Positions 9,118-58,300 of a stretch of 64,000 bases of DNA are shown here, piece by piece. The stretch's first letter is position 1, and every line of letters starts with the position of its first letter. The DNA lies in contig NOWV01000187.1 of NCBI GenBank assembly GCA_003344405.1, forward strand, positions 62,001-126,000, in the 5' to 3' direction. A model generated the notes under the pieces. The model was not told the DNA's origin. It did not search any database and saw nothing but the letters and a program-made list of their open reading frames with translations. This DNA is from Trichoplax sp. H2. Lineage: Eukaryota. The translations under genes were made by a program, and so were the position numbers.

Positions 9118-10490
9118 GTACTGTACTGTGCTGTACGGTACTGTATTTGGCAGTGTTGTGCGTAGTGTAGTGTACTGTACAGTGTACAGTACACTACACT
9201 ACAGTACAATAGTAGAAAATTGGAGAGTTTTTTTAACCGCGTGGTAACTGGAACTGTACAGTACTGTACATCGTACTGGACATTGGGGACTACTGGGTTC
9301 TCTAGGGACCGCTAAAGACTCTTTCTTTTGCTTTACAGTGATTCGTCTGAGTGATACCTTAGCGTGTACGACAACGAGACGTTTCCAACGTTTGCAGAAC
9401 GTTGTTTTTTTACTGTAAAGATGGACTTATTAATATGGTTGCTAAAACAAACACTTTACAGTACAGTACACTGTACAATGTACAGTATTGTATTGTAGTT
9501 TTTGCTGATGAAGCTGATGATGATTGATGACTTGCAATCCAAATATAGTAACTTATAGTATAATCCATTCAATACAATGCACTGTATTACTGTACTGTAC
9601 AGTACACCCTGGTCCCGGTTACAACAACATTACAGTACAGAACAGTGCATGAGTGTACTGTACTGTACAGTACAGTACAGTACAATACTGTACAGTATGC
9701 GGTACAATACGTACAGTACAGTACTGTATTCCTTTAACACGTGATCCAATCCATGGGTACAAAATGGATGGCAAATGCGTGGTTAGAGACTTGTAAGAGT
9801 ATTAGTCTTGGAAACCCCTGGTTTTAATATGTACGATTAGTGGGTAACTTTCTACAATAAGAGACCTACTGTACTGTATGTGTACAGTACATATGTTCAT
9901 AACGATTGGTCTTTTGGGGCGTTTTCCTCGTAGTTTTTACTACAGTATTCAAACATACAGTACAATACTGTATGGAAGAAAACGGATCACATTGAGTACA
10001 GTACAGTATGGTACAGTACTGTAATGTACTGTATCAGAGACTAAAACAGTACAGTACTGTACTGTACAGCACAATATAAAGAAAAGAGAGGTTGCTCTCT
10101 TTTCTTCCGACTTTACAGTACAATGTACTGTAGTAAGAAAGAAAGATCCAACGACTGTACAGTACTGTACTGTACTGTACACAAAAAGAAATACGATACA
10201 GTACACTACTGTACTGTACTACTGTACTGTACTCTCTAAAAAAAGGGTCTCTACTGTACAGTGTACACTGTACAGTACTGTACATGTACGGTCGCGGCTG
10301 TCGCAGTCATGGACGGACGGAATAGACTACTACAGCAGAGTACAGTACTGTATTGGTATTACTACCATTGCCATGGTACCGTCGTATGTGGTACTGCGCA
10401 GTAGTGACCACTCGATCGTTCGTATTTGTGTAGCAACGTCCAAAACACATCTAAACAATCTTGTCGCGCTTGTACTGTACACTCTACTGT
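9118..10490. repeat. (CAGTA)n/(TACTG)n low-complexity palindromic island
   Basis: Dense TACTG/CAGTA pentamer tracts, including the perfect 26-bp palindrome TGTACTGTACTGTACAGTACAGTACA at 9654-9679. Confidence 0.9.
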
Positions 10491-10658
10491 TATATGTAGA
10501 CGCTCATTGGCGCAGTCATTCATATCTGGAAAGTGGCTGACTCTTGCTCTTACCATTGGTTAACGATCCACAGGTACAAATTCAAATTGGACGATTGATT
10601 GATTAACCAGCTTGGAGATGAAGTCCAATTGTACGGATTCAAGCGGTCAAAGATGACA

Positions 10659-11250
10659 ATCTGTATCTTGATTAGTTTTTTGAGCTTACTACGTTCTCTA
10701 GCGGTAAAGTTCCTAATTACTGGTTGAAAATGAACAATTTGCGATGTAGTCGTTAACGTTGGAGAATAGCTGATAGCTTTACTCCAGTTCACTATTCTAA
10801 CATTGGCAGTCTAATCAAGCATGCAAGCTAATTGATCACGATACTACAGTACACAGTAGACCATCTGTATCTTGAGCTTACTACGTTCTCTAGCGGTAAA
10901 GTTCGTAATTACTGGTTGAAAATGAACAATTTGCCATGTAGTCGTTAACGTTGAAGAATAGCTGATAGCTTTACTCCAGTTCACTGTTCTAACATTGGCA
11001 GTCTAATCAAGCATGCAAGCTAATTGATCACGATACTACAGTACACAGTAGACCATCTGTATCTTGATTAGTTTCTTGAGCTTACTACGTTCTCTAGCGG
11101 TAAAGTTCGTAATTACTGGTTGAAAATGAACAATTTGCGATGTAGTCGTTAACGTTGGAGAATAGCTGATAGCTTTACTCCAGTTCACTGTTCTAACATT
11201 GGCAGTCTAATCAAGCATGCAAGCTAATTGATCACGATACTACCGTACAC
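10659..11250. repeat. Tandem repeat, ~200-bp unit x3, upstream of TXNDC9
   Basis: Near-identical units start ATCTGTATCTTG at 10659, 10863 and 11055 (periods 204 and 192; copy 2 has a 12-bp deletion). Confidence 0.95.
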
Positions 11251-11549
11251 TCCGTGGCTGATAGCCACAACTGCACTACAGTACTTGCTCAACCCGTTTG
11301 ATGCAGTCATCATGTCACTAGATAAAGTACAGGATAGTAGCACACCTTATTTGTCACTTTGATAGACTGATTCTATACAACAGTACTCTAAAATTATCAC
11401 AGTACATAAATACATGTACTATCGATGTTATTGGGTTGCTTGTTAACGTATTCTACCAATTTCATTCATTTTGTAGAAATTTTTTTCCAATTTTGATCAT
11501 TACTTCACTGCTGAATCTATCATTTGACCTCGTCCTCTCAAATATCAAC

Positions 11550-12203
11550 ATGGCACAAAACTTAGAAAATATTTTCCAAGATCATTTATTAAGGGCAACC
11601 AAGATGGTTGAAGATCAGGTCGATGCTGAGCTGCATCGATTAGAGACCTTGGATGAAGATGAATTAGAAACCATCAGAGCGAAAAGACTCGAACAAATGA
11701 AGAAGCTAAACGCTCAAAAGCAAGAATGGTTTTCTCAAGGCCATGGCTCGTATTCGGAAGTTGCTGACGAAAAAGAATTTTTCCAGGCTACCAAAAAGAG
11801 CTTTCGTCTTATTTGCCATTTTTATCGTGATAGCACCTTTAGGTGCAAAATTGTTGATAAACATTTAGCTGAATTAGCCCCCAAGCATGTTGAAACTAGA
11901 TTTATAAAGATCAACGTGGAAAAAGCACACTTTTTGGTTGAGAGATTAAAAGTCAAAATGCTACCTACCATTGTATTAATTAAGGATGGCAAAACTGTAG
12001 ATAGAATAATTGGTTTCGACGAATTAGGAGGTACCGATGAATTTTCAAATGAAATGATGGAATGGAGGATCGCTAGAGCTGAAGTGATAAATTACAGTGG
12101 TAATATTTATGAGCCACCAACCACTGATTCTAAAAAATCAATTCATTTTGCGGTCAACAAAACTATTCGCTCCCAGGAAGATGATTTCTCCGACGATGAT
12201 TAA
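11550..12203 (+). CDS. TXNDC9: Thioredoxin domain-containing protein 9 / phosducin-like protein 3
   Basis: Single-exon 217-aa ORF from ATG 11550, with GHGSYSEV…CHFYRDSTFRCKIVDKHLAELAPKHVETRFIKINVEKAHFLVERLKVKMLPT…IIGFDELGGTDEF, typical of PhLP3. Confidence 0.95.
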   Translation: MAQNLENIFQDHLLRATKMVEDQVDAELHRLETLDEDELETIRAKRLEQMKKLNAQKQEWFSQGHGSYSEVADEKEFFQATKKSFRLICHFYRDSTFRCKIVDKHLAELAPKHVETRFIKINVEKAHFLVERLKVKMLPTIVLIKDGKTVDRIIGFDELGGTDEFSNEMMEWRIARAEVINYSGNIYEPPTTDSKKSIHFAVNKTIRSQEDDFSDDD

Positions 12204-12329
12204 CTACACAATACTGTAATATATTAACCCTTAATATCTTTCTTTTGCTTCTGTGTATGAAATAGCTGTACGCGTATACAGTACCTAAATCGCAACTCTA
12301 TGTATAGTAGTTAACCGTCGTCTTGTCAA

Positions 12330-13815
12330 TTTAATTTACAGAGCCTTACTGGCCATAAACTCAGCCTGATCGGCTCTTCTGTTTGGTTATCTAGTAATAA
12401 GTTTGCTTTTGCAGTTATAATAATTCTAAGATGGCGTTATTTGCGATTTCTTTATTCATTAATCCATGCCACTGTTGAGTTGGACATCAATCGTCAACCT
12501 CTGTATGGCTTCAGGATTTTATTAATTCATCAATTTTACCTAAAATAGACTCTGCAGAAGCGAGCAAGTGATGCTAAAATAGGGATTAAGTATAGTGATA
12601 TGCTCCTTGATTTCGCGTCATTTCTTTGTAGAGACGTTAAGAAAATAGCTTGTGGACTTCAAATACCCATTTTGACGGTGTCTACGCGTAAAGGGATGTC
12701 GTCTTAATAATCTGTTATGAGACAATCAGATAAATAGAATATTTATAGAGATTGCATTCATAACGAATTGATATGAATAATTATAATTTAAATTTACAGT
12801 AGACCATGTGCATGATGCACTTCTATATAGTACAGTAATAGTGATGATAACGAAAGAATTCATTTTATCCTAGCATCATGTTTACGGATTAAATTCATTT
12901 TTTTTGCGATCGTTGTACTATAACGTCTAGTATAACTTCACCCATTCAATCATCTTTGCTTTACAACACAGCCAAGCAATGTGCTTGTTGCATTATATAG
13001 AATTATAATTCGTTACTTATTGTACAAAATGTTAAAATCTCCTCAGATTAATTATATTATATTGTATCTTTCTAACATAATACTCGTATAGCAATGCCTG
13101 CAGTAGTAGAAGTATGAATGTATTTATTTCATTTCATGATTAAGGCTCTCAGTAGCCTTTGTCTGATGGAGAGAAATTTCGATTTACCATATCAGGCTTC
13201 ATGGGATTGCGTAGGATACGAGTCATGATATTTGAAATAAAAATTAAAGGTCAAAGATGGATGACTTACTGCGTTAATAGATCTGAATAAGTTTAATAAA
13301 TCAATTGCTTTTAAATTAGGGCACCGTGACCGTGCATGCATGATTCAAAAGTATCATCATAATAATACTGTCATAACTAATCCATGAAAAGTCATCATAT
13401 TGATTGAAGAGCCAACTTGTGACAGTGATAGATTATATAACATGGTTAAAAGTACAAATATGCTATACTAGTCAAAGTATAACGACCGAATGATCCATAG
13501 AGTCAAGAGGTAAGATCGGCCAGTAATTAATTCAATAAATAATGTACAATTATGGACTACCAGCAGACCTAATCTTTCTAGAGTCTGCACTCTTGATGCA
13601 ACTACTTTCGTCGCGGTTTTGTGTGCACACTGTACAGTGTACAGTCTATTACCCATATATCCACAATGTCAAAAGAAATTGGAAACTAGAAGACTCGTGC
13701 ACTCTATGAATTTAGGAGGCGGAAGGGACGAAATCATATTAGGAGCAAATTCTTACAGCAGAACGATTTGTATTTATGAAGGCTTTCGCGGCATGGCTAC
13801 CGCTCCATCTTCATT
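12330..13815 (-). pseudogene. Probable F-box/leucine-rich-repeat (FBXL-type) pseudogene
   Basis: Minus-strand fragments in the expected order: SSLPP…/ARVF*F, then VVASRV/(C)RL*KD*VC (F-box 'SRVCRLWKDL' with a 2-nt deletion and TAG stops), LWIIRSLYFD, SRCPNLKAIDLLNL ending at a GTAAGT donor (~13270), and IANNAILELL/NCKS. Multiple stops and frameshifts. Confidence 0.5.
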
Positions 13816-13992
13816 TACAGTTAGCAGTCGCTGTTCTACTGCCCATACAGTACTAACTGTATCTACCGTCCAGTACGATGACAGCATGACGGTTGTAATC
13901 TGGCCCAGTCACGCTACAGTACAGTAGCTTGCTTGGATAAAACACGGACATACAGATATACCGACGGCAAAGGTCGCGCATAAATTAAACGG

Positions 13993-14006
13993 TTTTCCCG
14001 CCAAAA
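13993..14006 (+). promoter_or_regulatory. E2F-type binding site
   Basis: TTTTCCCGCCAAAA matches the extended E2F consensus TTTSSCGCCAAA. It lies ~180 bp upstream of the F-box/LRR remnant. Confidence 0.45.
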
Positions 14007-15243: not shown

Positions 15244-15835
15244 TTCAATGTCAAAGTACAGTACTAGCGAGAGGAAATTTTTGTCGCCGGTACCATTTAC
15301 CGTATGTATGCGTGTTTCTTCTCGCTCTAATTTCATTGATTTGATTGCAATTTGTGCATTTTTGCTGCCTTGCAACTCCCAAAATAACTATCCATCCTTT
15401 GCAATAGCGTAATCTACCATGCAATTGCAGTATCGATATTATGATTCAATGTCAAAGTAGAGTACTACCGTTTGGAAATTTTTGTCGCCAGTACCATTTA
15501 CCGTATGTATGCGTATTTCTTCTGGCTCCAATTTCGTTGATTTGATTGCAATTTGTGCATTTTTGCTACGTTGCAACTCCCAAAATAACATTCCATCCTT
15601 TGCAATAGCGTAATCTACTATCCAAATGCAGTATCGATATTATGATTCAATGTCAAAGTAGAGTACTACCGTTTGGAAATTTTTGTCGCCAGTACCATTT
15701 ACCGTATGTATGCGTATTTCTTCTGGCTCCAATTTCATTGATTTGATTGCTATTTGTGCATTTTTGCTGCCTTGCAACTCCCAAAATAACATTCTATCCT
15801 TTGCCATAGCATAATCTTCTATCAAATTACAGTAT
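15244..15835. repeat. Tandem repeat, 201-bp unit x3
   Basis: TTCAATGTCAAAGTA starts at 15244, 15445 and 15646; the units are highly similar. Confidence 0.95.
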
Positions 15836-16711
15836 AGACTAAATTTTTCTAGTTTATGATCGAAGTTCGGTGTCCAATTTCAATTCATTTGGACATTGTT
15901 TACTATGGTGGGCCGAGTTACCGTCCATTGATTGCTTACTGTACTACAGGATGTCTTACAGCAATACAGACTTATACGGTAGACACTATAGCTTGTAGTA
16001 TGAAAAACTTGCTCAGTAGACTTTCTGTATCAGCGTGCGTTAAGAACCATATTAATACTGTACAGAAGGAAATGATGAAAGTCCATACAGTGCGCTGTAG
16101 TACGTAGACAGCTTTGGAACGTACCCCTACGCATTCGTATGGCTGCGTGCCTTTGAACCGAGCACTCTTTGCAAAACCATTTGCAATATTTTACAGTACA
16201 GTACAGGACACTACCTACTGCGTACAATGTACTGTACATTGTACGCAGTAGCACTATATAAACATTCCCGTCCTGCTCAGTCCATACAGAAACTGGACAA
16301 CATCAATGTACATTTCGATGCTTTATTCAATTTTATCAACAATTTGAACGGGTAATAATATCATCAACGATGCCAACCAATTTGTAGATGAAGAGCTTTC
16401 TCCACATAGAAGATACGACAGTGATTGATGATCATTGACTCCATTTAATCTAAGAATATACAGTGAGAGATGATGGCCTTGGATACGTAGTAGCATTAAA
16501 ATTCTGGCAGTTAGCGAACCCTTATTGCTAAAGGATAGCGTCCAAAGAGGGTTCCTTTCATCCGCCTTTTCATTCACTATAGTAATTTATATCAGTTGGA
16601 TTGAAATTATCAAGTTTACAATTCGTATTGTACTTGTATTACCTTATGGTGACGATAGATTGATTGTGGTTAGTCTTTATAGTTGACCCAAGATAAAAAA
16701 GGATAGCAGCT

Positions 16712-22703: not shown

Positions 22704-24299
22704 TAGCGTATGAAATATATTTACAACTTCGGGAACGATTAGGCTACTTTGCCAAACATTCGCCGTTTTGATTTTTATTGAATATGTCAGTCATATACAA
22801 TAACTGTAATTTAGAGTGAAACAGAAATGATTCCTTGACGAGTTTGTCGTTAAGATTGTTTATGATTCCGTTATCACACAATGCCACTATAAATTTAATG
22901 TATACAAATTTTATCCCAGACAATGCTTGTCTATCAGCTGATACTTTCGTCGAATAGTAATATTTTCCAATGTGAAGTGTGAATAAACGTGATGCAATAA
23001 TAGCCGTAACGTTCATATCCGGTAACTGATATTATTATGAACGAATATAAGAAGATAAGAATTTAAAATATTTTGGATTTGGCATTCGTTTCGCTGTCAT
23101 TTTGTCTAAGTTGTGCATGTTGTATTGCATAGCTTGCAGTTTTGCGTCGTTTCGGATAGGATTATCTATGAGAGTGTATATATACTTGTATACTATATCG
23201 ATGTTGTAGTTGATATTCGTATATTGATTAATTGCGACTTTTGGAATTGGCGTTTGAGACTCGATCATATGTGTATGATAGTGTTAGGACGTAGAAAGCT
23301 AGACTTTGTTAAATACTGTACAGAGAAGTAAATTGAGCTAAACTTTGTTAAAATTTAAGAAATATATGCCACTGTATTATTCCTAAAAGTATAAGATACT
23401 AATGAATGGAAAATAACTGAACGATGTTACAAATTGTAAAATTATGTGAATCAGTCTAATAATGAATATAAGTGACCGTTATGCAATGGAAAAGTAGGTA
23501 ATGTTCTGGTGTGGTTTACATCCTTACTATCGATCAATAGGCGTCTAATTTTAATAAAGGAATTGATGTAAAGTGCCACTTTTTAAGATTGGATTGTTAT
23601 CATATGATTCATTTATTTATTTATTAACGTACGCGTATATTGGACTGCATTGAAATGTTATGTTAGGCTGTTTTTACTGTAATATGCGTGATCATTTATA
23701 TGCATTAGTTCCATTTCATTTGACTGTCCCATTGATGTACAACGACGTGGTACAGTTACACCTGTCGAAGGTTTGTAGTCAACGAGTTGGAATTGGATGA
23801 TAAAGGAATTGCGATATAGTATCATGCTTTCGTTAAACTACGGCTGTCGCTTATTACTTGGCTAAAAGTTACAAATGAAAATCCCTGTCGGCTAGCTGCC
23901 TGTACTGTCTGGTAGACACTCGATGGCATGCACTTCAAAAAGGAGGATTGGATAGAGCACTATAGTATCGTATAGTACAGCGCCGGGCTACGTTGCTCTA
24001 ATCCATAATAAGACCAATAATATAACCTTTAAACTTTTTGCAAAGGTGGATATTTGACCTTTAGTATGTCGTATTATCAAGCTGCTAGTAAACGAATGTG
24101 AAAGAGCAGTCGATCATCAAGACAGCCAGCCTGCCAAGGCAGTTTAACACCTCAATGCAGACCAATACAGTATAGACGTCTGTACCGCGATGACAGCACC
24201 CAGGTTGCTTAGGTATACTTTTACTTTTGAATACGCCATTTTCTACCGTAACTACTGGTCCTCGAAGTCTATCACCATGGTGATGAGTGCCAGTAGCCC

Positions 24300-24815
24300 G
24301 GAACCAGTACGGTACCAGTACCAATCGTGCCCACTATGGAACACCACCCGTGACTGGGCCGTCAGTACCGTACGTCATACTACAGTACAGCCCGTGGGTC
24401 GTGGCTAGTCCGTGGCCTGCAGAAAGAAAAGTGATGCAAGACCAGTTGGACCACAAAGGTATCAAAAAAGGGAGGCAAAAAACTTGCAGTTGAGACTGGA
24501 TCTGAGAACAATTATCGTGCCATCTACTGTAGTCCTCAAGCACTGTACGGTGCCTAGTACAGCAAGAGCTGTGTTTTTTCCGCCACTGCGCCTGTTCCGT
24601 ACCCGGCGTAGCGTACAGTACTGTATACTGTAGATACTGAGTGTAAAGTACTGTGCTCTACAGTACTGTCCTACTATACTGTATACACTGTACTGTATCG
24701 TACACCCTATCGTGCACAGTGTATACCCTCTATCCTCGACCACATCACCTAGTGACCACTGACTGTGACCCTACAAAGGGAGACCCCATATTGCAAAGGC
24801 AGTACCGTACCGTAC
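24300..24815. repeat. (CAGTA)n/(TACTG)n island upstream of SLC25A43
   Basis: Repeated GTACAGTACTGTA/TACTGT motifs with locally raised GC. Confidence 0.75.
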
Positions 24816-25045
24816 CGGATAGAATGGGCAGTGCGTCACGTTGAATTGAATTGATCCCCCCTCTAGGCCTGTAACTCCTTTATCTCCATGTGGCAACCGC
24901 TGTTTCATCCCTTTCTCCTCTTAGCGTGGAATACACAGGAGCAAGAATCTTTCCTAGTTAGGTGAAAGTTTTCCTTGCGTTTTTTGAATCTCTTCTTCAT
25001 TGACTAGTTTCCAAGTGGAATTATCAGTCGATAGACCAAGACATT

Positions 25046-33739: not shown

Positions 33740-35190
33740 CAGTGTACAGTACACCATAGTACAGTACTGTAATCTAGAAGGTCTAGTGGTGTATGGGATG
33801 AGCTCGATTTACCCATCCAGTAATGGTATGCAATGTAGACTATCTTTTAGGCAAAATGTATACTGTACTGTATTCTATGATGTGCCTGATCCATTAAACT
33901 GCTGTCATGGTTGAGAACAACTTGACACTGAGCTATCCTCATTCATTCATGATAGACAGAAAGTTATGGATAATCGCCAAAGGGATCAATTCCATTCTTA
34001 ATTGATTGATAAATGAATAATTCATAAGCAATGGAAACGGATGCTTGCAACAACATAGCTCCGCTCTTCAATTGGCATGATTGGTATGACCGTAGAATGA
34101 ATGGAAGTTTTAGTACATTGCTTGTTTACTGGACGCATTTGTCATTCGCTAAATCGCGAATACAGTATCTTAAATCTGATTTTGTCGCAGTTGGTTCTAC
34201 CAATTGGCTTTGACTGTATAAGAGGATATAAACTAGAATCGGTTAGGTTAGACTGTATAAACGTTAGGAAAGTTTGATCATATTTACTATTTGCACTTGG
34301 TTCACCGTACTTTTCAGATTCACGCAGTCTTGCAGATTATTATCCGACATACTGTACTGCACGTACTGGACACTTTGTGTACAGTACAGTAGGTCAAACT
34401 ACGGTGGCTCACAATGTGAGCCACCGTATCAAACCGTTTCAACTACAGTCGATTTAAAGTGTGGGCAAAGTAAAATGAACACTTTCAATCTAGTTTCAAC
34501 GGCCTGACTTGAGTAGAACAATTATGTAAAAGATTTGATGAATGTAAAATGCACAGTGAACAAGGCAGCCATCCACCATTCCTGTATGTAATATTATTGC
34601 CCACTTCCCCACTATCATGTACAGTTGTACACTAATATACCGTCGATCATGATGATAATGCGTACGCAACTGGAACAATAACGTCATCCAACTAGAACCG
34701 TACTAGGTCACAATCTGTTATTTAATTATGTTCTACACTGTCTCTATCGATTTATAGAGATAGACATAGATAGATACATCAGAGCATATTGGGTTCTGAA
34801 TCCTTTTCTCTTTGTAGCAGTCTCTCTCTCTCTTAGGCGTACTTGCAGTAATCCAGTTCTCTTTTCTGAAACATCTCTCCCTCTCTCGTCTCAGTCTCGA
34901 AGCACAGTACATACTGTAGCGAGATGTGTACATTGTACTGTAAGACGAATCTTGTAATACTGTACTGTAGTATTAGTACAGTACAGTATGATTAAAAGGA
35001 AAAGGACTGACTGCAAATGCGTCGATCACCTAGGAAAGATGAAACTCGATGAGAGTCAAGTACAGCACTGTCAGAGTTCGGAGTGACGTAATGGAATGAC
35101 CATGGTGCGACTGACCTGCGACCACTAGGACTACAGTACACTACTGTACAGTACTGCACTCTCCTAGTAGACTGTACTGTACACTGTACA
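33740..35190. repeat. (CAGTA)n/(TACTG)n island in the divergent TMEM201-UFSP2 interval
   Basis: Tracts at ~33740-33880, 34345-34390 and 34900-35190. Confidence 0.75.
34400..34428. promoter_or_regulatory. Perfect 14-bp inverted repeat
   Basis: TACGGTGGCTCACA-A-TGTGAGCCACCGTA. The palindrome is directly visible; a regulatory role is inferred from position only. Confidence 0.5.
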
Positions 35191-35410
35191 CGGTGGTTGT
35201 TGTTGTTGGACGGATTGAAGAAGGAACCAAAATTCTTCTTCCATTTTTCTGCCTGTGAATAACAAAATTGATTTTATTCCAACCAAGTAACTGCAAGACA
35301 ACATCCCCTACTGCAAGCGACAGATAGACAAGCGTAAATTAGCTGTCACATTGATCGATCTATTCAAGCTTTCGTTACTGTAGAAAGGATTAATCGCCAT
35401 CGATGTGGAC

Positions 35411-40543: not shown

Positions 40544-43517
40544 TTATTCGTTCATCCAACTTTCTTCTACTATAGCAGAAACTTTCTTTTCATATTCACG
40601 TTTATTCTGCTGATATAATTGGGCAGCTAGGCTGTTAGCAGGACTATTAGGATTAGGTTCATCTAAAAGAGACTGGATCAACAAAATAAATAGTTATTAC
40701 GGATTGATGCATAGAAAACGTCTCTAAACGTTGACCAACGTGTACAACAGAGAATGTGAAATGATCAGGCTTTAAAGTTACTTAGCTTACTTGTATCGAA
40801 GTGAGGATAGCTGACACATCATATGTAGGACTCCATCTATTTTGTAATATATCTAGGCATATCCCGCCGTCCGCATAAACTACAATTAAGAATATGTAGC
40901 AAGGCATGAATTCGCGATAGCTTTGTTTACAGTCGTCAATACACTTTAATGTTAGGTGTATCAAGTATTTTTCCTCGGTTGCAGACATTGAACTTGTAAA
41001 CAAATCTTCACAGTATTTACGCAACATCGCTTTAAAGTCTTACCATTAGGATGAAACATTTTGGAGACAAATCTAACTGCGGGAGGTTTGTTAGGATAAT
41101 CTTCCGTAAACCGAATCGTTAATTTAAAGGTACCTATAGCCATTCCGAATCGGCGTGGATAATCATGACAGATAAAAGTAATAAATAAGTTTACGAATAC
41201 CGAAAGTTCAACATCGCTATGACATTTTAATAGATAGTCAACTGGTGTTCAAAGGAAGTGGTAAAAAACTTTAGCAGTTGCGTTGGTATTACAATCTTTT
41301 CAATTTATGAACTAACCGTCTTCAAAAGGTGTATCATGAGGTCTATAAACGAGGTCCATCGTATATCCATTTCGATATATGAAAATAAAGATATAATATA
41401 CAGTATCTTAGAATTTGCCTGGCATGATTTAAAAATGTTGATAAGAGTACTCGTACTGCTTGGACTAGCTTTCATGGGTATTTATACAGTAATAGCTCAC
41501 TGGCTAACATTCTTATTGATATATCATGTCAAGTATAGAATCTTTCGTTGGGGGACGGTATCCCTACTCTACAAGTGCGTCAATCATTACCCAAATATGA
41601 CCGCATTCCAAATTAAAATATTGTCTTCGGTAGGAGCTCCGCTTACACCTGCTGGTGGATCTTCTTGTAATCTAGTTTGATGGGATGAAGAAAAAAAGTA
41701 GCGATATCCGTTAAGTGTAAGCTATTTTTGAAATGCATATTAAGAGTTCATGTCCTATCTACATCACATGAAATCCATGAAATGGTGCTTGCTAGTTACA
41801 CACCCTAGCTATCATTGCCTATTGCTATAACTCAATCCCTCATTCATCATAGCTGGTACAGGATAATTCCATTACGGTAAGCGCACTTTCTGAGGGATAA
41901 AGCGATGTAAAAAGCGGAGTGAAACAATTATTGATGACAGTGGCAACTATTGTAAATCATTGCAATTAGGAAATTGATTATCATGAACTCCATCCAAGGA
42001 TATTACTACAGTAGGTTATTTCACACGTAATACTACAAATTTGGATGATGGAAGTCCGATATCACTAGGCACCGTAGTACGCGTCGGTGTTGAACGAGAC
42101 TTTGGAACGTTTATCCTCTATCCACTCAGATGCATGATGACAGCATTGAAACACTCTCCAAAGCGTTGATATGCTATACATCATGATGGGCTTGAACTGT
42201 CATATTTAATTTGGATACAGTACAAGATCGAAGAAGAATCGTTGGCGTTGCCAGGGACTACTATGGTGCTGCTGATATCGAACTGATACTGTATCATCGC
42301 CAACGTCACTCCTTCCTTTCAAGCACTACAGTAAGACATGTCCAAGGTGATGTTGTTCACGACTGGCAGTCCATTAGCGACTCCTCTCTCATTATTTCTG
42401 TTATAGTCCATCCAACTCCAACTGCATTATCGCCAACCTCACTGTACACTGTATAGTTACTCAAGATTACCAAGTCCTTACTTTTAGGCACAACAGTAAG
42501 CCATGTCAAGGCTTTATCTTGTTGACTCCTGTAAAGTTGATCAGCGACTGCTGTTCTTTTTCTTCGCCAACGTCACTGTGTACTGGTATACAGTAATAAC
42601 AGTATCGTTACTCAAGATTGCAAAGCCCTTCCTTTCATCCTGTACAGTCAAACATGTCTAGGCTTATCTTGTTCACTCCTCCAAGTCTATCAGCGATTCC
42701 TCTCTCTCCTTTTTCTAGCATAGTCTGCGAAAGAGGATAAAACTGGAGACTTTTCGACCTATTCTACGTCCATGGATTACAAGAAAATTGTCCAATTTTC
42801 GAATCATTGATGGTATCCATGGTAGTCACAGTCAAGCAATACAGCAAGTTGAAATGACTAGCAGCAAGCCACTACACGCGCATGCCCCAATGTGCTGCGT
42901 CAGTCTACGTGATACGACCTACTAGGGTACGGAAACTGAAACGGTACGGTACCACTTTGTACTGTACACTGTACAGTAAGTATTACAGCTCTACCCGTAC
43001 TCAACCATAGTAGAGCTACGGAAGACGCAGCTACGCACTGTATTGTACTCTAGTGTAACTTGTCTATCATCCACTGCATACAATCTTGTACAGCCAGCTA
43101 GAATGGTTGTACAAATTGAATAAGACTTTGGCTCCTGCAGTGCCATATAAAACGTGAAAACTTCATGGTCGATGACAAACTTGATTAGGCCGCTCTTCTT
43201 TTACTTATTGATCTTCATTTTAGAAGTTATGTCATCACTAGGAATAATTCTCCACTATACAGCACTATCAACGAGTTTCGATACTTGAAACCGATGATGC
43301 AAGTACCATTTTCATTATCCGTAGCAATGTAAATTACTGAATAAGGTCGATGGGAAATAGTGGGTAGACAAACATGAAAAGACAGTATCAACGCGCTACA
43401 ACGGTCAATGGATTTCAATCTAGGTTTATGTTTAATCATTCCTTTCAATCCAATACTGTATTGCTGTACTTACTTTTTAAAGTCTCTCATTAATCGTCTT
43501 CTTGCTGGTGTCGACAT
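40544..43517 (-). CDS. UBE2A: Ubiquitin-conjugating enzyme E2 A/B (Rad6)
   Basis: Exons 43517-43474, 41671-41591, 41342-41317, 41133-41044, 40879-40791 and 40672-40544 total 459 nt (152 aa): [23 protein letters not shown]…[26 protein letters not shown]…SPANS. Confidence 0.97.
42298..42725. repeat. Diverged ~134-bp tandem repeat x3 in UBE2A intron 1
   Basis: CGCCAAC.TCACT…ACAGT.A..CATGTC…TTGTT.AC…AGCGA recurs at 42298, 42431 and 42565. Confidence 0.75.
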
Positions 43518-43622: not shown

Positions 43623-43834
43623 CAACTTGATGATGAGAAATCGAGGGGCTAAACCAACCAGATTGATTAATAATGGTCCAATTTTCTTACAAGTTATCAC
43701 TGGCTACCTTGATCGTTACTTCACCAGCAATCAGCAGGCCAGAGGAAAGCCAAGAGTCTTTCCACTTTTAATGATCAATATTAAAGAACATCGACGTCGA
43801 CACAGGGACCCTATCGATTTGGGATGATGTTGGT

Positions 43835-45600
43835 CTTACAGTACGCTACAGTATTTCCCCAACTGCTGTACTGTACCGTACAGTACTAGGATAGGAGATT
43901 AAGGAAATGCCTAGATCAAGCCACTGAAACAGGAGCACAGATACTGTACTGTACACTGTACAGTACAGTATCTGCATTTCCAAGCTATACAGCTCAAAGG
44001 AAAATTCTTAGCTCACTCTTTCGGACCGAGCTACAGTCCGCAGAAAGGACTTCTACAGTAGGATACTGTAGGACAACAAACTTTGCACTGCACAATATAC
44101 AGTACAGTACTGCAATGCTGTAATACTGTACAGTGTACAGTACTGTACAGTCATGACTTACTGTACTGTACAGTACAGTACTGTAGCCCTGCAACTCCTT
44201 TGGACGGACAGACATTTGGCCTGCTTTGGTCAATACATTGTGTCAAATACTCCATTTTGACAGTACTTTAGTATCGCACTAGTCGATTCTGGAGAGACTG
44301 ATTTTTTCTACTGACAGTAATCCATGGACTACTACTGTAGTAGTGTACTGTAGAGTCTACACTGCAACTCCTTTGGACGGACAGACATTTGGCCTGCTTT
44401 GGTCAACCCATTGTGTCAAATACTTCATTTTGACAGTACTTTAGTATGGCGCCAGTCGATTCTGAAGAGACTCATTTTTCTACTGACAGTAATCCATAGA
44501 CCACTACTGTACTGTAGAGTGACTGCAACTCCTATGGACGGACATACATTGGACCTGCTTTGGTCAATCCATTGTGTCAAATACTCCATTTTGACAGTAC
44601 TTTAGTATGGCGCCAGTCGATTCTGAAGAGACTCATTTTTTCTACTGACAGTAATCCAAGGGCTTACTACAGTCGACCTGCAACTCCTTTGGACGGACAG
44701 ACATTGGCCTGCTTTGGTCAATCTATTGTGTCAAATACTTCATTTTGACAGTACTTTAGTATGGCGCCAGTCGATTCTGACTGAATAGACTGATTTTTTC
44801 TACTGACAGTAATCCATGGACCACTACAGTACTGTAGAGTGTAGACCTGCAACTCCTTTGGACGGACAGACATCAGGCCTGCTTTGGTCAATTTATTGCG
44901 TCTACATTGTGTCCATTTTGACAGTACTTTAGTATGACGCCAGTCGATTCTAAAGAGACCCATTTTTTCTAAATAAAGTCCTATTCCATTGCCTGTTACT
45001 AAGCTCTACTTAGAAGCAGTCCATTTAGATGATGAATGTTATTGAAATGAATACGAGTGATTTGGAAAACAGAGACGGAAGATCTATCTATACTGAGCAA
45101 CTCTTTTTGGATATTTTGCGGCCTTGTCTTGTATGAAAAGTCCGTCCGTCGGAGGAGAGTGGCAGCCGGTCTACTGTAGTATTTTTTCTAGTAGCAGTCG
45201 AGAAGGAATCACAGTAATCGTACAGTACAGTACAGTACAAAATGGAGCCATGACAGTACAGTACTGTAGACTACAGTATGTTGACAAGTATTGTACAGTG
45301 AATACGAACAGCCGTATTGAAGATTCATACTGGTGTCAATGAGCATGGAGACAAGAAATGGAACACTTTGTTGGAATGATTGTAAAGCTAACTACGAACT
45401 CTTACTCTCTATTGAAGATTGAATTGATTGTCAGCAACGCAGTTTAGAACGCAGTACTGTACTACGTACGGTACTTGAATTTAGACTTTATTTGGTAGAG
45501 TATTTGGTCATTTCCTACGGTAGTACTGCGTTGTTGATTCAACACTCTACAGTGTACAGTACTGTAGTCGTGCAAGTCGTCTACAGTACACTGTACTCCA
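43835..45600. repeat. (CAGTA)n/(TACTG)n island between divergent UBE2A and importin-alpha-like genes
   Basis: Dense tracts at 43835-44185 and 45215-45600, including the 37-bp palindrome CAGATACTGTACTGTACA-C-TGTACAGTACAGTATCTG at 43938-43974. Confidence 0.85.
44189..44971. repeat. Tandem array, 155-173-bp unit x5
   Basis: CTGCAACTCCT(T/A)TGGACGGAC starts at 44189, 44362, 44523, 44678 and 44847. A conserved ~140-bp core alternates with variable TACTG/CAGTA-rich linkers. Confidence 0.95.
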
Positions 45601-52556: not shown

Positions 52557-54180
52557 TTAATTAGCTTTTGGAACGAATTTGAGCGAATTTGAGAATATTC
52601 AAAAACGCGATTTACCACCAGGTCCATCACGAAGAAATTCGTGACCAAGACCTTGTCCACAGTTACCGCAGGAAACTTTTAGTGCTCCAGGTGATTCTTC
52701 ATATTTTGATAGGCTATTTTCGGAAACTGTTTCAGTGAAAGCAGGCCAAGGTGATGAATGCTCATATTTAGACTTGCTAGGAAATAAGTCATGATTGCAC
52801 TTTGAGCAGACATATTTGCCTAATGACAAAAGATAAAAAAATAGATAAGCATCGCATTTTACAATCATTACCATCCTAAATGATTTTGCGCTGCTTCCAA
52901 TTGCCTCCAACGGGTGTATATTTGGCGTACATTAATAACGGTCACTTCATATCGATGTTAAGCACCGGATACTTTGTCATGATAATTGACTGAAGACTAG
53001 TTCAGGTTTCTTATGTCATCCTGTTGCATACAAATAACGTAACTTTGTAAAGGCATTATTCAATTACAGAGATAGCTGGGTTTGGAGTGAAAGGCGATAC
53101 AAGATCGGCAACCATTCATATTACTTATAGAATTAATTCATTGTGTCCTTGTGTAGTCTATTCGATAAGTGTTGCGATATCTTTTGTAAATTACATGCAG
53201 AAATGAACGGCTATAATTATGGCGCAGATGCCATATCCAAATGTTATGCATTCACGGACAGTACTTTACTGATAAAGATATAGTCAACGGATAACCATGC
53301 AATTTTTCCGTTTTCATTCCATCATGAACTACTACTCTACATCTACAGTGCTGGATGTTTATTTCTAGGTACGAGTATCTCGATGAATTCTATAAATTGT
53401 AAGGTAATGAAAATTGGCACAACAGCCGTGACTGCCGTAGATCTATTTTATTATTGACTCTCCATCCCTAAACGATACCGTTAAGCAGATTTGGATGAAC
53501 TTGCCACAAATTTTCCATTACTTTGATAGATGAAGTAAGGTTACGATAATAACTTTGCTCTCTACAGTAAAGGTAATTTAGTGATTTTACCCATGTAAAC
53601 CACCTTGTATCCATTCCATTTCACTGAGCGTGATTGCTTAGTGCCAGCTACAGCTGCTTTGTCAAGTCCTCCCTCCCACATACTACTAGCTCACCGTCAA
53701 TAAGGCAAAGTACTGCCTTTTCCTACTTGACAGTGAAAGGATTGCCATGAAATCATACAACTCCACGATCTACTTGCAGTGCACTACAATCATTAATTAT
53801 AGATACAGTACAGTATAATGGATGTTTATAAACCTTCATAAGTACGCAATGATTTACACATGAGTCTGTACTCCAATTAGAATGAGATCAATTCCACTTT
53901 ACGGACCAAGCCAAATTCTGAAGCGTAACATCGTAATGTTACGCTTCAGAATCTTGGTTGGTGCGTGAAATGGAATTGATCGCATTTTCAAGAGAGCAAC
54001 CGCTGAATGAACAGTAGGTGAAGAAACGTTGTCCATGATCGTAGGCCGGCAATCGATTGAGAAACCTGTCATGATGATCCATTTGAAAGGATTGAGCAGT
54101 ATTAAGTCCTATCAACAACATTGTTTCCTACCCGATTCAAAGTGGTCTTTATATTTTTCGCTTCTCCAGCTGCAAAACAT
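52557..54180 (-). CDS. MSRB1: Selenoprotein methionine-R-sulfoxide reductase B1 (SelR/SelX)
   Basis: Exon 1 54180-54132 ([17 protein letters not shown]) plus exon 2 52819-52557 (KYVCSKC…[12 protein letters not shown]…[12 protein letters not shown]…[22 protein letters not shown]) total 312 nt. The TGA at 52601-52599 occupies the catalytic RFUIFS position of MsrB1. Confidence 0.96.
53881..53986. repeat. 106-nt imperfect inverted repeat (long hairpin) in the MSRB1 intron
   Basis: Arms 53881-53930 and 53937-53986 pair at about 43 of 50 positions. The inner 16 bp (ATTCTGAAGCGTAACA) are perfect and the loop is TCGTAA. Confidence 0.9.
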
Positions 54181-55319
54181 GATACGCTCCGTATGACTGA
54201 TCGATCGATCACAAGATCTTTTCCCTTGCTTCTTCTTATTGCTCGATCAAGAAATGATCAGCAAGATTATTTTGAAAAATGCGATGGTGCCGAGAGTGAC
54301 TGGCAGGGACAATCCAGTACCAGGCAGAGACTTGGAAGACCACTACAGTACAGTATTGGTCTTACAATCCGTTGGCAGTCCTGTACTGTACACTGAGTGA
54401 ACAGTACAGTACAGTACAGTACAGTTCTGTTCCAATATCAAGTACTGTACTGTACTGTACCCTACAGTGCATGAAACCACCATGACTCAACGAAAATGAC
54501 AGCACCCGTGACGTACCATTACCGCTTCAGGCATGGTCAAGTCACTCTTCTGACTGAGAGTCAGTAGTCTGTACAGTAGATAGTATTTTTCCACAGTACG
54601 TACTGTACTGTACTGTGGAAAATACAAACAAAATACATGTCGTCCAAGTCACCATGTTATACTGGAAATTGAACCTACTCGGATGACATCTGTTTTACAT
54701 ACAGTACNNNNNNNNNNNNNNNNNNNNTCTTTATATTTTTCGCTTCTCCAGCTGCAAAACATGATACGCTCCGTATGACTGATCGATCGATCACAAGATC
54801 TTTTCCCTTGCTTCTTCTTATTGCTCGATCAAGAAATGATCAGCAAGATTATTTTGAAAAATGCGATGGTCCCGAGAGTGAATGGCAGGGACAATCCAGT
54901 ACCAGGCAGAGACTTGGAAGACCACTACAGTACAGTATTGGTCTTACAATCCGTTGGCAGTCCTGGACTGTACTGTACAGTACTGTACAGTTCTGTTACA
55001 ATATCAAGTACTGTACCCTACAGTGCATGAAACCACCATGACTCAACGAAAATGACAGCACCCGTGACGTACCGTTACCGCTTCAGGCATGGTCAAGTCA
55101 CTCTTCTGACTGAGAGTCAGTAGTCTGGGTGAATGACGCAACACACCCACAAAGTGAAGCCGCACTTTTGGGCGGTGGCCATCTACAGTAGATAGTATTT
55201 TTCCACAGTACGTACTGTACTGTACTGTGGAAAATACAAACAAAATACATGTCGTCCAAGTCACCATGTTATAGTGGAAATTGAACCTACTCGGATGACA
55301 TCTGTTTTACATACAGTAC
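54146..55319. repeat. ~570-bp direct duplication flanking a 20-N assembly gap (54708-54727); includes part of MSRB1 exon 1, its upstream region and a CAGTA island
   Basis: 54146-54707 is repeated at 54728-55319, differing by SNPs, pentamer tract lengths and a 56-bp indel. Confidence 0.9.
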
Positions 55320-58300
55320 GGGACTGTACTGTACAGTGTACATCACACCGCTTTTACTCGTGCCATACTGTTCCTGTAAACTACTGCAACACTAATCGTG
55401 TTAACTCTTATTGCAATTCGACAAGGAGCACAAGGAAATGGACAAGACCACAATAATTCACCACCAAATAGCGCATAGGAACTGATTCTACTGTACATGA
55501 TGACTTGCATTGGTATCTTTAGCCGTTGTAAAGTGCTCAAGATATAAGTTATTAAGTTAAATGGACGATTGAATTTACAAATAAGTGTTATCCATTAACT
55601 TAGCGACTCACGTATCAGGTCTCAAGCATTAAATAGCCTCACCAATTTCCCTGGTGCAAAACTATCATAAATAAGTAAATTAATAGCCAAGTCTACAGAA
55701 GTATAGTAAGAATCACATTATACTTTTCGACGACATTGGATATTTGTTAATTTAATAACTGCGTGTTAACATATGATTCATCACATAATAAAAACTATAA
55801 TATTGATGGCACAATTATGAATTCATGAATGCCACTTGATATGCACGGTTGATACTAGTTTATACGGTGAATATTACAGGATAGAGACAGAGAAAGCATA
55901 TAGACAGCAATCAGAAAGAATATGGCTGTGAATTTCCTTTTAATGTCTTGCTTTGTGTAGAATATATATCCGTCCATTTGAACGGGGGCTTTACTAGTAT
56001 TATTAATTAGAGAAACTTTGATGTAGCTAGCTTGTCTTATGCTTTGCATCGTAGCCGCTTTTGACTTGGGACTTTGAAGAGAAATTCTCTTAGAAAAAGC
56101 ATCTATTTTGCCTTTTTACATCTTTATGCTGTAAATTAGGCACTACCAAACGCTCCTCTTACGTATCAATTTATCACACATTACAACTCCGGTATTCCAA
56201 TGTCAAGATTGATCCTTTATGTATATCTAAATAAACCTGTAGTATCTTGCCAGCTCTTGTACTCATCGAAATCCTTTCTTAAACTACTGACAGAAACCAC
56301 GTCTGTTTACAAAAGCCCTCTACTAGAACTGTCAAGATAATTGTTACATGTCAAGAGTACTTAGCTTGATCCCTAAGCAAGGATTGAGCTGCTGTGATAA
56401 TCGATTTCTGCCTGAATCAACCGTGCTTACGTCAATGAATGAGAGCTTTAGCTCTTCGGTTCGCTATCAAATATCTAGATGAATTGTAAATCATAATATT
56501 AGTCAACAATACGCACACAGTATACGACATTTTCTGACGGCGATTAATAGCTGGCAGTATGCAACATGTCTTCAAATCGCTATTATAACAATAGGAAAAT
56601 TTCCTTTTAAAATTGAACAGTCATTTTTACAATTATCCGCTAAAAGTAGGTCATCATTTTTTCATCATTATTAGAATTGCGATAAATTTTAAATTAATTC
56701 ATTGTCTATAGTTTAACTTCTAATTATTCGATTTATCTCCATTTTGCATAGTTCTTGGTTTTTAATCAAGTATTGCAGCAATAAATGATTCTTCAGTAAT
56801 AGAATGACTTACATGAAATAATGCTAAAGTATTTCCGCTACATAATTACAGGTATGGAATTGATCAGTGAAATATGGTTAATCCATAATCAATGAGAATA
56901 CCCATCCCCAATTCATGCCAATTTTGTCCCTTTAGAAAAGGCCAGAATTTTTAATCTGACGCTCGCAATTTCAAAACTGTAATCCCTAAATCGCATTCAT
57001 TTATCGTCGATTTAATATTTAGTAATAATTGCAAAGGCTGAGAATAGAGCTGAAACGTATCAACAAATAAGATTGATACGCAATCATCTTATATTCAATT
57101 AGAGAATGAAGAGCTGGTCTTAATTAATCTTCAACGTCTGTTATAGAGAAGCTATAAACTAATTAACTAATAAAGGAAAGATTCATTTTATGGCTTAAAA
57201 TTTTATAACATTAACGGTCTATTTGAGGCCCTCTATGTCATAAGCCTATCCTAAGTCATGATGGAGGGTAAGTGTAAGGATAGGTGAATTTTAATTTATG
57301 AATCAAGATTGAACTTTAGCTTTTTTTAGTCTACTTACAAAGATGAATAATTTTTGTCGTAAAGTGTGTACGGCATATTAACTATAAATTACATGTAATT
57401 ATTCGAATTGGATGTAAAATCAACTTTCAAATGTACACGTATTTGTTAGCAATGATTATAGCCACACACGGTAAATAGAAATACTGAATATAAGAACGAT
57501 TATCATATATTCATATGCGTACAGTTATGAACCATAATGCAAACAGCGGATGTATACGAGTATATACGTATTACCGTTGATAACACTAGAGCACATGTCG
57601 ATGAGCTACCATGACTTTAATAAATCTAAATTATGATTATGCTTGCATTCTTATTAATTAAATTAATGACTTCCATGTTTAGTATAATATGAACATAAGA
57701 ATAAACTATCGTGATAGCTATTTTATTTTCTTCAGGTTAAACAAGCGTCGTACCTTATAGTACTATTTATAAAACAGGCCAACTACCTTATCTTTTGATT
57801 TGTTAACCCTTTAAACTATGAAATTGGGTCTACTAGACCATTTCAATACGAATCGTAGAAGTAGCAACCACCACTGCAGATCTTTTTATTGCATTCACTT
57901 TTTCATCATTAGCATTAAACGTACTTTAAGTGACTACTAGCTAGTTTGATCAAGCTGCTAAGAAATTCAAAGGAAAGTTCCATCATGAAGGATATATGCT
58001 TAAAAACTATAAGTATATTTTAGCTGTGACATCATTAGTATGCAAATCCTATTACCTATCAGCGATCATGCCAAGGTGGCAAAAAAATAATTTCAGTATA
58101 GTATTATACATTATTTTAGTGTAATTACTACAGCGCAGAATGACAGGCCTTGAAAAATAACGAACGAATAAGGCGTCGTTAAATTAAAAATTTGCACCTG
58201 GCCAAATTGTCTGTCACTCATTAATATTTTATTCGATCAAAATGTACGTCTAGATTGACCTAATTTGTATATAAAATAAACACAAAAGTGTTTAATAATC

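What the first reader, a model, noticed from the sequence alone, without database searches (positions are those of the whole stretch)
9118..55340. Palindromic CAGTA/TACTG islands mark the 5' ends of housekeeping genes
Seen: dense tracts of one pentamer, flipping orientation to form GTAC-centred palindromes, occur at ~9118-10490 (TXNDC9 and the divergent ORF), 13625-13925, 16190-16250 (CRAMP1), 24300-24815 (SLC25A43), 33740-35190 (TMEM201/UFSP2), 42940-45600 (UBE2A/importin) and 53800-55340 (MSRB1). They are sparse in gene bodies and absent just upstream of the lectin gene and the formin's first recognised exon. Inference: a lineage-specific promoter mark analogous to CpG islands, acting through a sequence-specific binder, nucleosome exclusion or cruciforms. 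I know of no name for it.
Basis: partly seen in the sequence, partly recalled or inferred. Interest (0 to 1): 0.8.

Follow-up and report, generated by a model that had tools for sequence, protein, structure and literature searches.

The report
Known placozoan ACAGT promoter repeats
These clusters of short ACAGT/ACTGT repeats are real and lie just upstream of most genes in the window, but they match a repeat described in the placozoan Trichoplax in 2010, whose binding protein and mechanism remain unknown.

Summary
Observation confirmed. The window holds 216 copies of TACWGTA, about 14 expected from base composition. The "orientation flips" are A or T at the centre of one pseudo-palindromic unit, ACWGT, repeated every 5 bp.

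The islands lie between divergent genes or upstream of first exons: ORF209/TXNDC9, a mitochondrial carrier, TMEM201/UFSP2, UBE2A/importin-alpha-like, MsrB. A formin and a C-type lectin gene have none.

This is not new. Wang et al. 2010 (PMC2871265) reported ACAGT as the dominant Trichoplax microsatellite, 54% within 1 kb upstream of genes, and proposed a transcription-factor site. A 2026 paper (PMC12817080) lists repeating ACAGT among motifs tied to chromatin structure in T. adhaerens.

- The centre base is near random between neighbouring units (34 of 81 switches, against 103 of 1944 in ordinary ACAGT microsatellites).
- Half the heptamers stand alone and are still enriched.
- Perfect 26-41 bp palindromes occur in the islands.
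- No transposon body is shared between islands.
- One Mutator-like element sits inside a tract.

Best reading: arrays of sites for an unidentified dimeric promoter or architectural factor. The binder is inferred, not shown.

The parts
9119..10479 (.). Island 1: 56 TACWGTA in 1361 bp between ORF209 (minus strand) and TXNDC9 (plus strand). Includes perfect palindromes at 9162-9202 (41 bp), 9654-9684 (31 bp) and 10252-10277 (26 bp).
   Evidence: flanking genes
13625..13926 (.). Island 2: small cluster (3 TACWGTA plus TGTACAG units) downstream of TXNDC9. It lies inside an RNA contig of run X7 (13580-14287). Another strain shows insertions at 13606-13655.
15828..16251 (.). Island 3: 6 TACWGTA. Ends in a perfect 37-bp palindrome (16215-16251) that abuts a TATA box.
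16255..16262 (+). TATATAAA box directly after the palindrome. RNA contigs of X7 and X6 begin at 16329 and 16354.
   Evidence: contig ends are only a weak hint of a start
24166..24817 (.). Island 4: 9 TACWGTA plus (GTACC)3 at 24802-24817, upstream of the mitochondrial-carrier (SLC25A43-like) gene.
   Evidence: gene
24912..25567 (+). First exon seen of the Mito_carr gene. RNA contigs of X6 and X7 both begin at 24912. The GT..AG joint 25567^26673 sets the strand.
33745..35382 (.). Island 5: 20 TACWGTA between TMEM201 (minus strand; Ima1_N exon 32311-32508) and UFSP2 (plus strand). Also holds a 29-bp perfect palindrome, not made of ACWGT units, at 34400-34428.
41399..43460 (.). 10 scattered heptamers and short tracts inside UBE2A intron 1.
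43473..43517 (-). UBE2A exon 1, with the start codon at about 43517.
   Evidence: six-frame match to a short recalled N-terminal motif; exon 2 at 41590-41721
43837..45588 (.). Island 6: 37 TACWGTA between UBE2A (minus strand) and the importin-alpha-like gene (plus strand). Includes a 37-bp perfect palindrome at 43938-43974.
44186..45178 (.). Mutator-like non-autonomous element inside island 6. Its TIR-like ends carry GGACGGAC, 161-bp units repeat internally, and both flanks are ACWGT tract with an 8-of-9 matching 9-mer.
   Evidence: the TSD inference is weak because both flanks are tract
53563..55495 (.). Island 7: 28 TACWGTA upstream of MsrB (minus strand; SelR exon 52602-52931). Contains a 582-bp tandem duplication and a 20-N gap at 54708-54727. 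(ACAGT)5 at 54401-54425 and (GTACT)3.8 at 54442-54460 can pair as a 19-bp stem.
11550..12203 (+). TXNDC9, a single coding exon.
7970..8590 (-). ORF209, a protein on record in public collections with no Pfam family. RNA contigs of X6 and X7 reach 9010.

Best explanation
What it is. The islands are instances of the (ACAGT)n repeat that dominates the Trichoplax (placozoan) genome and concentrates upstream of genes. Its unit is the pseudo-palindrome T-AC-W-GT-A.

How I think it works. Each heptamer is a site for a still unidentified sequence-specific protein that binds as a symmetric dimer and does not read the central base. Tandem 5-bp arrays and scattered single sites together form a high-avidity platform in the proximal promoter and in bidirectional intergenic regions of constitutively used genes. 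That platform keeps these regions open and insulating, and it may contribute to the promoter-promoter contacts described in placozoans.

Where the tracts come from. Slippage, hairpin-templated copying and local tandem duplication create and reshuffle the tracts as a secondary process.

Shown versus inferred. Shown here: motif anatomy, clustering, and position relative to first exons. Taken from papers: genome-wide upstream bias and the link to chromatin structure. Inferred: the binder, its dimeric mode, and the effect on chromatin.
For: 1. The unit is palindromic with a free centre. There are 216 TACWGTA against 25 TACSGTA. The flanking T and A are kept at 0.67 and 0.66.

2. Neighbouring in-phase units switch A/T in 34 of 81 pairs (42%). 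In 113 metagenome contigs holding the same pattern, the figure is 103 of 1944 (5.3%). The tracts therefore do not look like plain slippage products.

3. 108 of 216 heptamers stand alone.

4. Position. Islands lie upstream of the start-codon exons of ORF209, TXNDC9, the Mito_carr gene and UBE2A, and between TMEM201 and UFSP2. 140 of 216 lie within 1.5 kb upstream of 10 anchors, P = 0.008. One tract ends 4 bp before a TATA box. RNA contigs of two runs from one study stop at 9010 and start at 24912, while DNA-like contigs run on to 9140 and from 24710. This is a weak hint only.

5. Genome-wide abundance with differing flanks. 3110 contigs of the DNA-like run X1 lay on 20 kb. Depth rose from about 100 to 2000-12000 only in tract-bearing bins. 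Loose-end consensus agreement was 0.37-0.48.

6. Print.
- PMC2871265 (passages): 7233 pentanucleotide microsatellites, 78% of them ACAGT; 54% and 85% lie within 1 and 5 kb upstream of genes; GO enrichment for translation and protein modification; a TFBS role was proposed.
- PMC12817080 (section 61 read): repeating ACAGT found de novo for T. adhaerens by a network trained on Micro-C maps.
- PMC12221973 (passages): about one third of placozoan genes, housekeeping ones, form promoter hubs with a motif at loop anchors.
Against: - No binding protein, accessibility, nucleosome or contact data were examined here. The chromatin link rests on a model-based sentence in one paper.
- The letters of the loop-anchor motif in PMC12221973 appear only in a figure I could not see. 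PMC12817080 attributes the transposon-borne motif of that paper to ACGG, not ACAGT.
- Near-random centre bases and long perfect palindromes (26-41 bp) could also arise from hairpin-templated copying within quasi-palindromic repeats, without selection.
- Tracts vary between strains (insertions at 13606-13655). This fits fast neutral turnover.
- 13 heptamers lie in gaps between convergent genes, and 19 lie in introns.
- The anchors of the permutation test were set by me from partial gene models. The 500-bp version is weak (P = 0.045).
- Contigs cannot define transcript starts.
- The organism is inferred, not named by any tool.
Confidence: 0.55

Rival explanations
1. Neutral by-product of mutation. 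Open, negatively supercoiled promoter DNA favours slippage, hairpin formation and template switching in a quasi-palindromic pentamer. Tracts then arise and persist at promoters without any function.
For: - Perfect palindromes of 26-41 bp, including arms that are not ACWGT units (16215-16251, 34400-34428), point to inverted duplication.
- Strong hairpin potential: z = -2.1 to -6.3 in 5 of 6 tracts folded, -1.1 in the sixth.
- Local tandem arrays of 150-582 bp sit in or beside 5 islands.
- Indels between strains lie at a tract.
- De Bruijn contigs break at every island.
Against: - Isolated heptamers are enriched 2-5 fold outside the islands, where no slippage substrate exists.
- The outer T and A of the heptamer are kept.
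- S at the centre is rare, 25 against 216.
- Ordinary ACAGT microsatellites elsewhere stay in one orientation.
- A gene-class bias is reported in print.
Confidence: 0.22
2. Transposon-derived. The tracts are terminal inverted repeats, target-site duplications or footprints of Mutator-type elements that insert at active promoters.
For: - PMC12221973 reports Mutator insertions in housekeeping promoters, with the motif in the TIR (passages).
- A Mutator-like element with GGACGGAC-bearing ends lies in island 6, flanked by tract. A solo end lies at 10285-10325.
- Any two tracts of opposite centre base look like a TIR pair.
Against: - Self-BLAST finds no sequence shared between islands except the tracts themselves.
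- Inter-tract DNA at 9274-9606 is single copy in the runs.
- PMC2871265 reports 0.13% transposon content and 6 MuDR matches, against thousands of ACAGT loci.
- The element in island 6 appears inserted into a tract rather than carrying it.
- PMC12817080 assigns the transposon motif to ACGG.
Confidence: 0.08
3. DNA structure itself is the effector. Cruciforms or very flexible YR-rich DNA exclude or position nucleosomes without a sequence-specific protein.
For: - Self-complementarity of 80-100% in any tract.
- A 19-bp perfect stem at 54401-54460.
- z-scores down to -6.3.
- Two flexible steps (TA, CA/TG) in every 5 bp, seen directly in the sequence.
Against: - Isolated 7-bp sites cannot extrude, yet they are enriched.
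- Most in-phase runs are only 10-25 bp.
- No structural or nucleosome data were available.
Confidence: 0.12

Closest known systems
Trichoplax adhaerens (ACAGT)n microsatellite (Wang et al. 2010, Biol Direct 5:18, PMC2871265; passages read)
   Same: Same pentamer, with the same bias to the region upstream of genes. The window holds 23 perfect one-orientation runs longer than 12 bp. The paper's genome-wide figures imply about 3.5 for 64 kb.
   Different: The paper counts perfect repeats only. In the passages I read it does not describe the free central base, the palindromes, the isolated heptamers or the bidirectional islands.
Repeating ACAGT motif found for T. adhaerens by the Chimaera network (PMC12817080; section 61 read)
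   Same: Same repeat unit, tied to Micro-C patterns. The paper also reports insulation at gene starts in this species.
   Different: It is one sentence plus a figure I could not see. The evidence is model-derived, with no binder and no promoter analysis.
Placozoan promoter-hub loop-anchor motif in Mutator TIRs (Kim et al. 2025, PMC12221973; passages read)
   Same: Housekeeping promoters of a placozoan carry a lineage-specific motif. An ACGG-bearing, TIR-like element does sit in two of the islands here.
   Different: The motif letters were not visible to me, and a later paper equates that motif with ACGG. The ACWGT tracts here are not transposon ends.
CpG islands of vertebrates
   Same: A compositional island at the 5' ends of broadly used genes. 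GC is 41% in the islands against 34% elsewhere.
   Different: CpG is not enriched (observed/expected 0.70 against 0.92). The signal is one specific heptamer.
Housekeeping-promoter motifs bound by architectural factors in Drosophila (DRE/BEAF-32, Motif 1/M1BP, GAGA factor on GA repeats); recalled, not tested
   Same: Short lineage-specific motifs, often multimerised, that mark constitutive promoters and insulate.
   Different: Different sequences and proteins. No orthologous binder is known for TACWGTA.

Membership tests
Trichoplax (ACAGT)n microsatellite (Wang 2010) | Perfect ACAGT repeats longer than 12 bp, abundant | tested here: met
   23 runs of 13-25 bp, 12 in one orientation and 11 in the other
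Trichoplax (ACAGT)n microsatellite (Wang 2010) | Lies mostly within 1 kb upstream of genes | tested here: met
   110 of 216 heptamers within 1 kb upstream of 10 anchors, which cover 15.6% of the window; P = 0.008
Trichoplax (ACAGT)n microsatellite (Wang 2010) | The genome is that of Trichoplax | tested here: inconclusive
   No tool names the organism.

Consistent with Trichoplax:
- ACAGT dominance together with an ACGG element.
- TXNDC9 is 100% identical to a protein on an 8.57-Mb contig, the next hit is 81%, then 64% to corals and molluscs.
- Two annotated assemblies hold ORF209.
- GC is 34.6%.
Chromatin-insulation motif of T. adhaerens (Chimaera) | Changes Micro-C insulation | not testable with these tools
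   No contact maps are available here.
Placozoan loop-anchor motif in Mutator TIRs (Kim 2025) | The motif lies in the terminal inverted repeat of a Mutator element | tested here: not met
   For the ACWGT tracts, there is no shared element body and flanks are unique. The GGACGGAC-bearing ends at 44186, 45178 and 10311 may fit that family.
Ordinary pentanucleotide microsatellite | Head-to-tail copies of one oriented unit | tested here: not met
   34 of 81 neighbouring units switch the centre base, against 103 of 1944 in metagenome ACAGT arrays. The longest in-phase run is 5 units.
CpG island | CpG observed/expected raised above the surrounding DNA | tested here: not met
   0.70 in the islands against 0.92 in the rest
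Dispersed transposon or MITE family | Copies share internal sequence, TIRs and TSDs | tested here: not met
   Self-BLAST of the window and the loose-end consensus in the DNA-like run. This covers one window and one 20-kb stretch only.

The most novel reading that the evidence does not exclude
TACWGTA is the recognition site of a placozoan-specific dimeric architectural protein, possibly a domesticated transposase. Arrays of the site nucleate the promoter hubs and insulation of constitutive genes. Mutator elements home to these arrays, and hairpin-templated copying keeps regenerating perfect palindromes. The repeat would then be a self-renewing promoter mark, neither a plain microsatellite nor a transposon relic.
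Probability: 0.3. Interest if true: 0.65.

Novelty: already known. Interest (0 to 1): 0.3.

Why it matters
The repeat is one of the clearest cases of a lineage-specific sequence mark at animal promoters. It sits in an early-branching animal that forms thousands of promoter-promoter contacts. In the papers I could search and read, its binder and its relation to the loop-anchor motif remain open fifteen years after the first report.

The unit is a 7-bp palindrome with a free centre, and single copies are enriched on their own. The same points warn that structure-based transposon callers may read paired tracts as inverted repeats.

As a discovery, however, it is a rediscovery.

Tried and rejected
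- Whole genome: none is held, so no genome-wide test was possible.
- Rfam on the window: 0 matches.
- Earlier findings of this scan: nothing, by place, words or sequence.
Single ORFs of UFSP2 and the importin-alpha-like gene then gave nothing useful.
- Pfam on small exons:
  - No family for the gene at 16.3-23 kb, so CRAMP1 is unverified.
  - Only a weak Arm hit for the importin-like gene.
  - Nothing right of island 7, so no gene is assigned to its plus-strand side.
- 5' ends: those of TMEM201, UFSP2, MsrB and the importin-like gene were not located. The anchors used are the first recognised exons.
- RNA cover: no long RNA contig piece was listed over 9011-11195 or 24394-24911. Missing cover is not evidence. 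The joints inside 9192-10253 are tract-mediated misjoins, not introns.
Most are one-orientation microsatellites. L084 is a 56-bp higher-order satellite. They served only as a control.
- Literature searches on the exact words TACAGTA, TACTGTA and longer forms returned only unrelated papers. The pentanucleotide/promoter search was also unrelated.
- PMC10580291 has no occurrence of ACAGT or GTAC.
- Supplements were closed. Additional file 5 of PMC2871265 and Supplementary Data 1 of PMC12221973 may list these very loci and the TIR consensus.
- A CpG-island reading was rejected.
- A reading as arrays of initiator elements was considered. It was not pursued because the tracts lie upstream of the TATA box, not at the start.

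Full report
**1. Is it there?**

The window is 64 kb with 34.6% G+C. The ten 7-mers that make up (ACAGT)n on either strand occur 680 times. Fifty simulations each of Markov orders 1 to 4 gave 51, 100, 217 and 361. TACAGTA/TACTGTA is the commonest 7-mer of the window, with 216 copies.

Coverage per 500-bp bin is near zero over most of the window. It peaks at 9001-10500, 13501-14000, 16001-16500, 23501-25000, 33501-35500, 42001-46500 and 53501-55500. Tandem Repeats Finder lists many short period-5 arrays there.

**2. Anatomy**

GTAC is twice as frequent as base composition predicts (421 against 204). Successive GTACs are 5 bp apart 84 times, 7 bp apart 18 times and 10 bp apart 12 times. The base between two GTACs is A 40, T 36, G 4, C 4. 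The 'flip of orientation' is therefore only A or T at the centre of one pseudo-palindromic unit, ACWGT.

Aligning all 431 units shows T at 0.67 before the unit and A at 0.66 after it, so the unit is TACWGTA. S at the centre is rare, 25 against 216. In-phase runs are short: 52 runs of 2-5 units.

Neighbouring units switch the centre base in 34 of 81 pairs. There the switch rate is 103 of 1944, and most contigs are all-A or all-T. The window's tracts are thus unlike ordinary slippage microsatellites.

Half of the heptamers, 108 of 216, have no in-phase neighbour. That compares with 12, 19 and 29 expected (Markov orders 1-3 trained on that DNA), and with 3-25 for eleven composition-matched palindromic heptamers.

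Perfect palindromes (arm >=9, loop <=3) give 32 rows, about 19 distinct, against 1.7-2.8 in simulations. 30 of the 32 rows lie in or at the edge of the islands. They reach 41 bp (9162-9202) and 37 bp (16215-16251 and 43938-43974). Some arms are not made of ACWGT units, and one 29-bp palindrome (34400-34428) has none. Five of six tracts folded as single-stranded DNA beat their shuffles, with z from -2.1 to -6.3; the sixth gave -1.1.

The islands are richer in G+C (41% against 34%) but not in CpG (observed/expected 0.70 against 0.92).

**3. Surroundings**

Genes and strands come from Pfam, six-frame motif matches and spliced RNA contigs.

| Gene | Strand | Evidence |
|---|---|---|
| Formin | minus | Drf_GBD exon 3946-4287 |
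| ORF209 | minus | 7970-8590; on record in public protein sets |
| TXNDC9 | plus | single exon 11550-12203 |
| Mitochondrial carrier | plus | from 24912; GT..AG joints |
| TMEM201 | minus | Ima1_N exon 32311-32508 |
| UFSP2 | plus | conserved C-terminal motif near 38790 |
| UBE2A | minus | exon 1 with start codon near 43517; exon 2 at 41590-41721 |
| Importin-alpha-like | plus | weak Arm hit and an NPPV motif |
| MsrB | minus | SelR exon 52602-52931 |
| C-type lectin/PAN | plus | from 58872 |

Every island lies between divergent genes or upstream of a first exon. Within 1.5 kb upstream of 10 anchors (21.4% of the window) lie 140 of 216 heptamers. The circular-shift P is 0.008; the same test gives 0.008 at 1 kb and 0.045 at 500 bp. 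The formin and lectin exons have 0 and 1.

There are exceptions. Ten heptamers lie in UBE2A intron 1, nine lie in the 5' part of the importin-like gene, and 8 and 5 isolated heptamers lie in two gaps between convergent genes.

**4. Reads**

On 8001-28000, run X1 behaves as genomic DNA. Depth is flat near 100 and every bin is covered. Its contigs break at each island (9140|11214, 13840|13884, 15297|16020, 24023|24710).

Depth rises to 2000-12000 only in tract-bearing bins. 3110 contigs were laid in all. The sequences that run on from the tracts have no consensus (agreement 0.37-0.48). The tracts are therefore repeated across the genome, at many places with different flanks. Inter-tract DNA such as 9274-9606 is single copy.

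Two RNA runs of one study both stop at 9010 and both start at 24912, and they start at 16329 and 16354, while the DNA-like contigs go on. One RNA contig (13580-14287) runs through island 2.

A TATATAAA box at 16255-16262 follows the 37-bp palindrome directly.

**5. Transposon test**

Self-BLAST finds nothing shared between islands except the tracts. It does find local tandem arrays in or beside five islands:
- 192 bp at 10655-11250
- 201 bp at 15241-15838
- about 150 bp at 42311-42706
- 161 bp at 44164-44971
- 582 bp at 54146-55319, at 84% identity, around a 20-N gap

One element does look like a Mutator-type non-autonomous transposon. It spans 44186-45178. Its inverted ends carry GGACGGAC, it holds internal 161-bp units, and tract lies on both flanks with an 8-of-9 matching 9-mer. 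A solo end lies near 10311. It appears to be inserted into a tract. Any two tracts pair as an inverted repeat, so structure-based callers could mistake them for TIRs.

**6. What is known**

Wang et al. 2010 (PMC2871265; abstract and passages) found 11,697 microsatellites in Trichoplax adhaerens. Of these, 7233 are pentanucleotides, and 78% of those are ACAGT. They called this the first genome in which pentanucleotides dominate. 54% and 85% of ACAGT repeats lie within 1 and 5 kb upstream of genes. GO terms for translation and protein modification are enriched, and they proposed a transcription-factor site. They report 0.13% transposon content.

The Chimaera paper (PMC12817080; section 61 read whole, other passages) says that for T. 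adhaerens 'repeating motifs ACGG and ACAGT' were found. It says the former belongs to a transposable element already linked to insulation by Kim et al. It also reports insulation at gene starts in this species.

Kim et al. 2025 (PMC12221973; passages) describe promoter hubs for about a third of placozoan genes, mostly housekeeping. They find an enriched loop-anchor motif that also lies in Mutator TIRs. The motif letters are only in figures I could not see.

PMC10580291 has no ACAGT or GTAC in its text.

No tool names the organism of the window. The inference that it is a Trichoplax-type placozoan, about 0.9 in my estimate, rests on three things:
- Both reported motifs are present.
- TXNDC9 is 100% identical to a protein on an 8.57-Mb contig, then 81%, then 64% to corals and molluscs.
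- Two annotated assemblies hold ORF209.

The window holds 23 perfect one-orientation runs longer than 12 bp. The 2010 figures imply about 3.5 per 64 kb.

**7. Mechanism**

I commit to arrays of sites for an unidentified symmetric dimeric binder that marks constitutive promoters, about 0.55. The grounds are the palindromic unit with a free centre, the kept arms, the enrichment of single sites, and the position upstream of the TATA box and first exons.

| Rival | Odds |
|---|---|
| Neutral by-product of hairpin and slippage dynamics at open promoters | 0.22 |
| Direct structural effect of the DNA | 0.12 |
| Transposon origin | 0.08 |

The palindromes and tandem arrays show that a mutational engine acts here whatever the function is. 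It could also explain the random centre base, which is the main weakness of my argument.

**8. Verdict**

The feature is already known, so interest is low to moderate. The open questions are the binder and the relation to promoter hubs.

Noticed in passing
window 44186-45178: Mutator-like non-autonomous element. Its inverted ends carry GGACGGAC, it holds four to five internal 161-bp units that each repeat the end sequence, and it appears inserted into an ACWGT tract with an 8-of-9 matching flanking 9-mer. A solo end lies at about 10285-10325.
   Followed up: partly
window 10655-11250, 15241-15838, 42311-42706: Tandem arrays with units of 192, 201 and about 150 bp lie right beside or inside the islands. 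BLASTN finds no relation between them. Promoter regions here seem prone to local duplication.
   Followed up: partly
window 54146-55319 (N run 54708-54727): A 582-bp tandem duplication at 84% identity spans a 20-N assembly gap. The copy number and length of this island in the assembly may be unreliable.
   Followed up: partly
window 34400-34428: A perfect 29-bp palindrome (14+1+14) that contains no ACWGT unit, inside the TMEM201/UFSP2 island.
   Followed up: no
window 43596-43622: An (AG)13.5 run about 80-105 bp upstream of the UBE2A start codon, on the transcribed side of the island.
   Followed up: no
window 60822-61529: Imperfect 15- and 45-bp coding repeats rich in Ser, Thr and Glu lie between C-type lectin and PAN domain exons. 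They look mucin-like.
   Followed up: no
window 28500-29293 and 39434-40441: Isolated TACWGTA heptamers (8 and 5) lie in two gaps between convergent genes, with no tandem tracts. They could mark unannotated promoters or enhancers, or be exceptions to the upstream rule.
   Followed up: partly
L001-L113 (metagenome contigs), e.g. L084 1245-1470: (ACAGT)n arrays are widespread in public metagenome contigs of unknown organisms, and almost always in one orientation. L084 carries a 56-bp higher-order satellite with mixed centre bases.
   Followed up: partly
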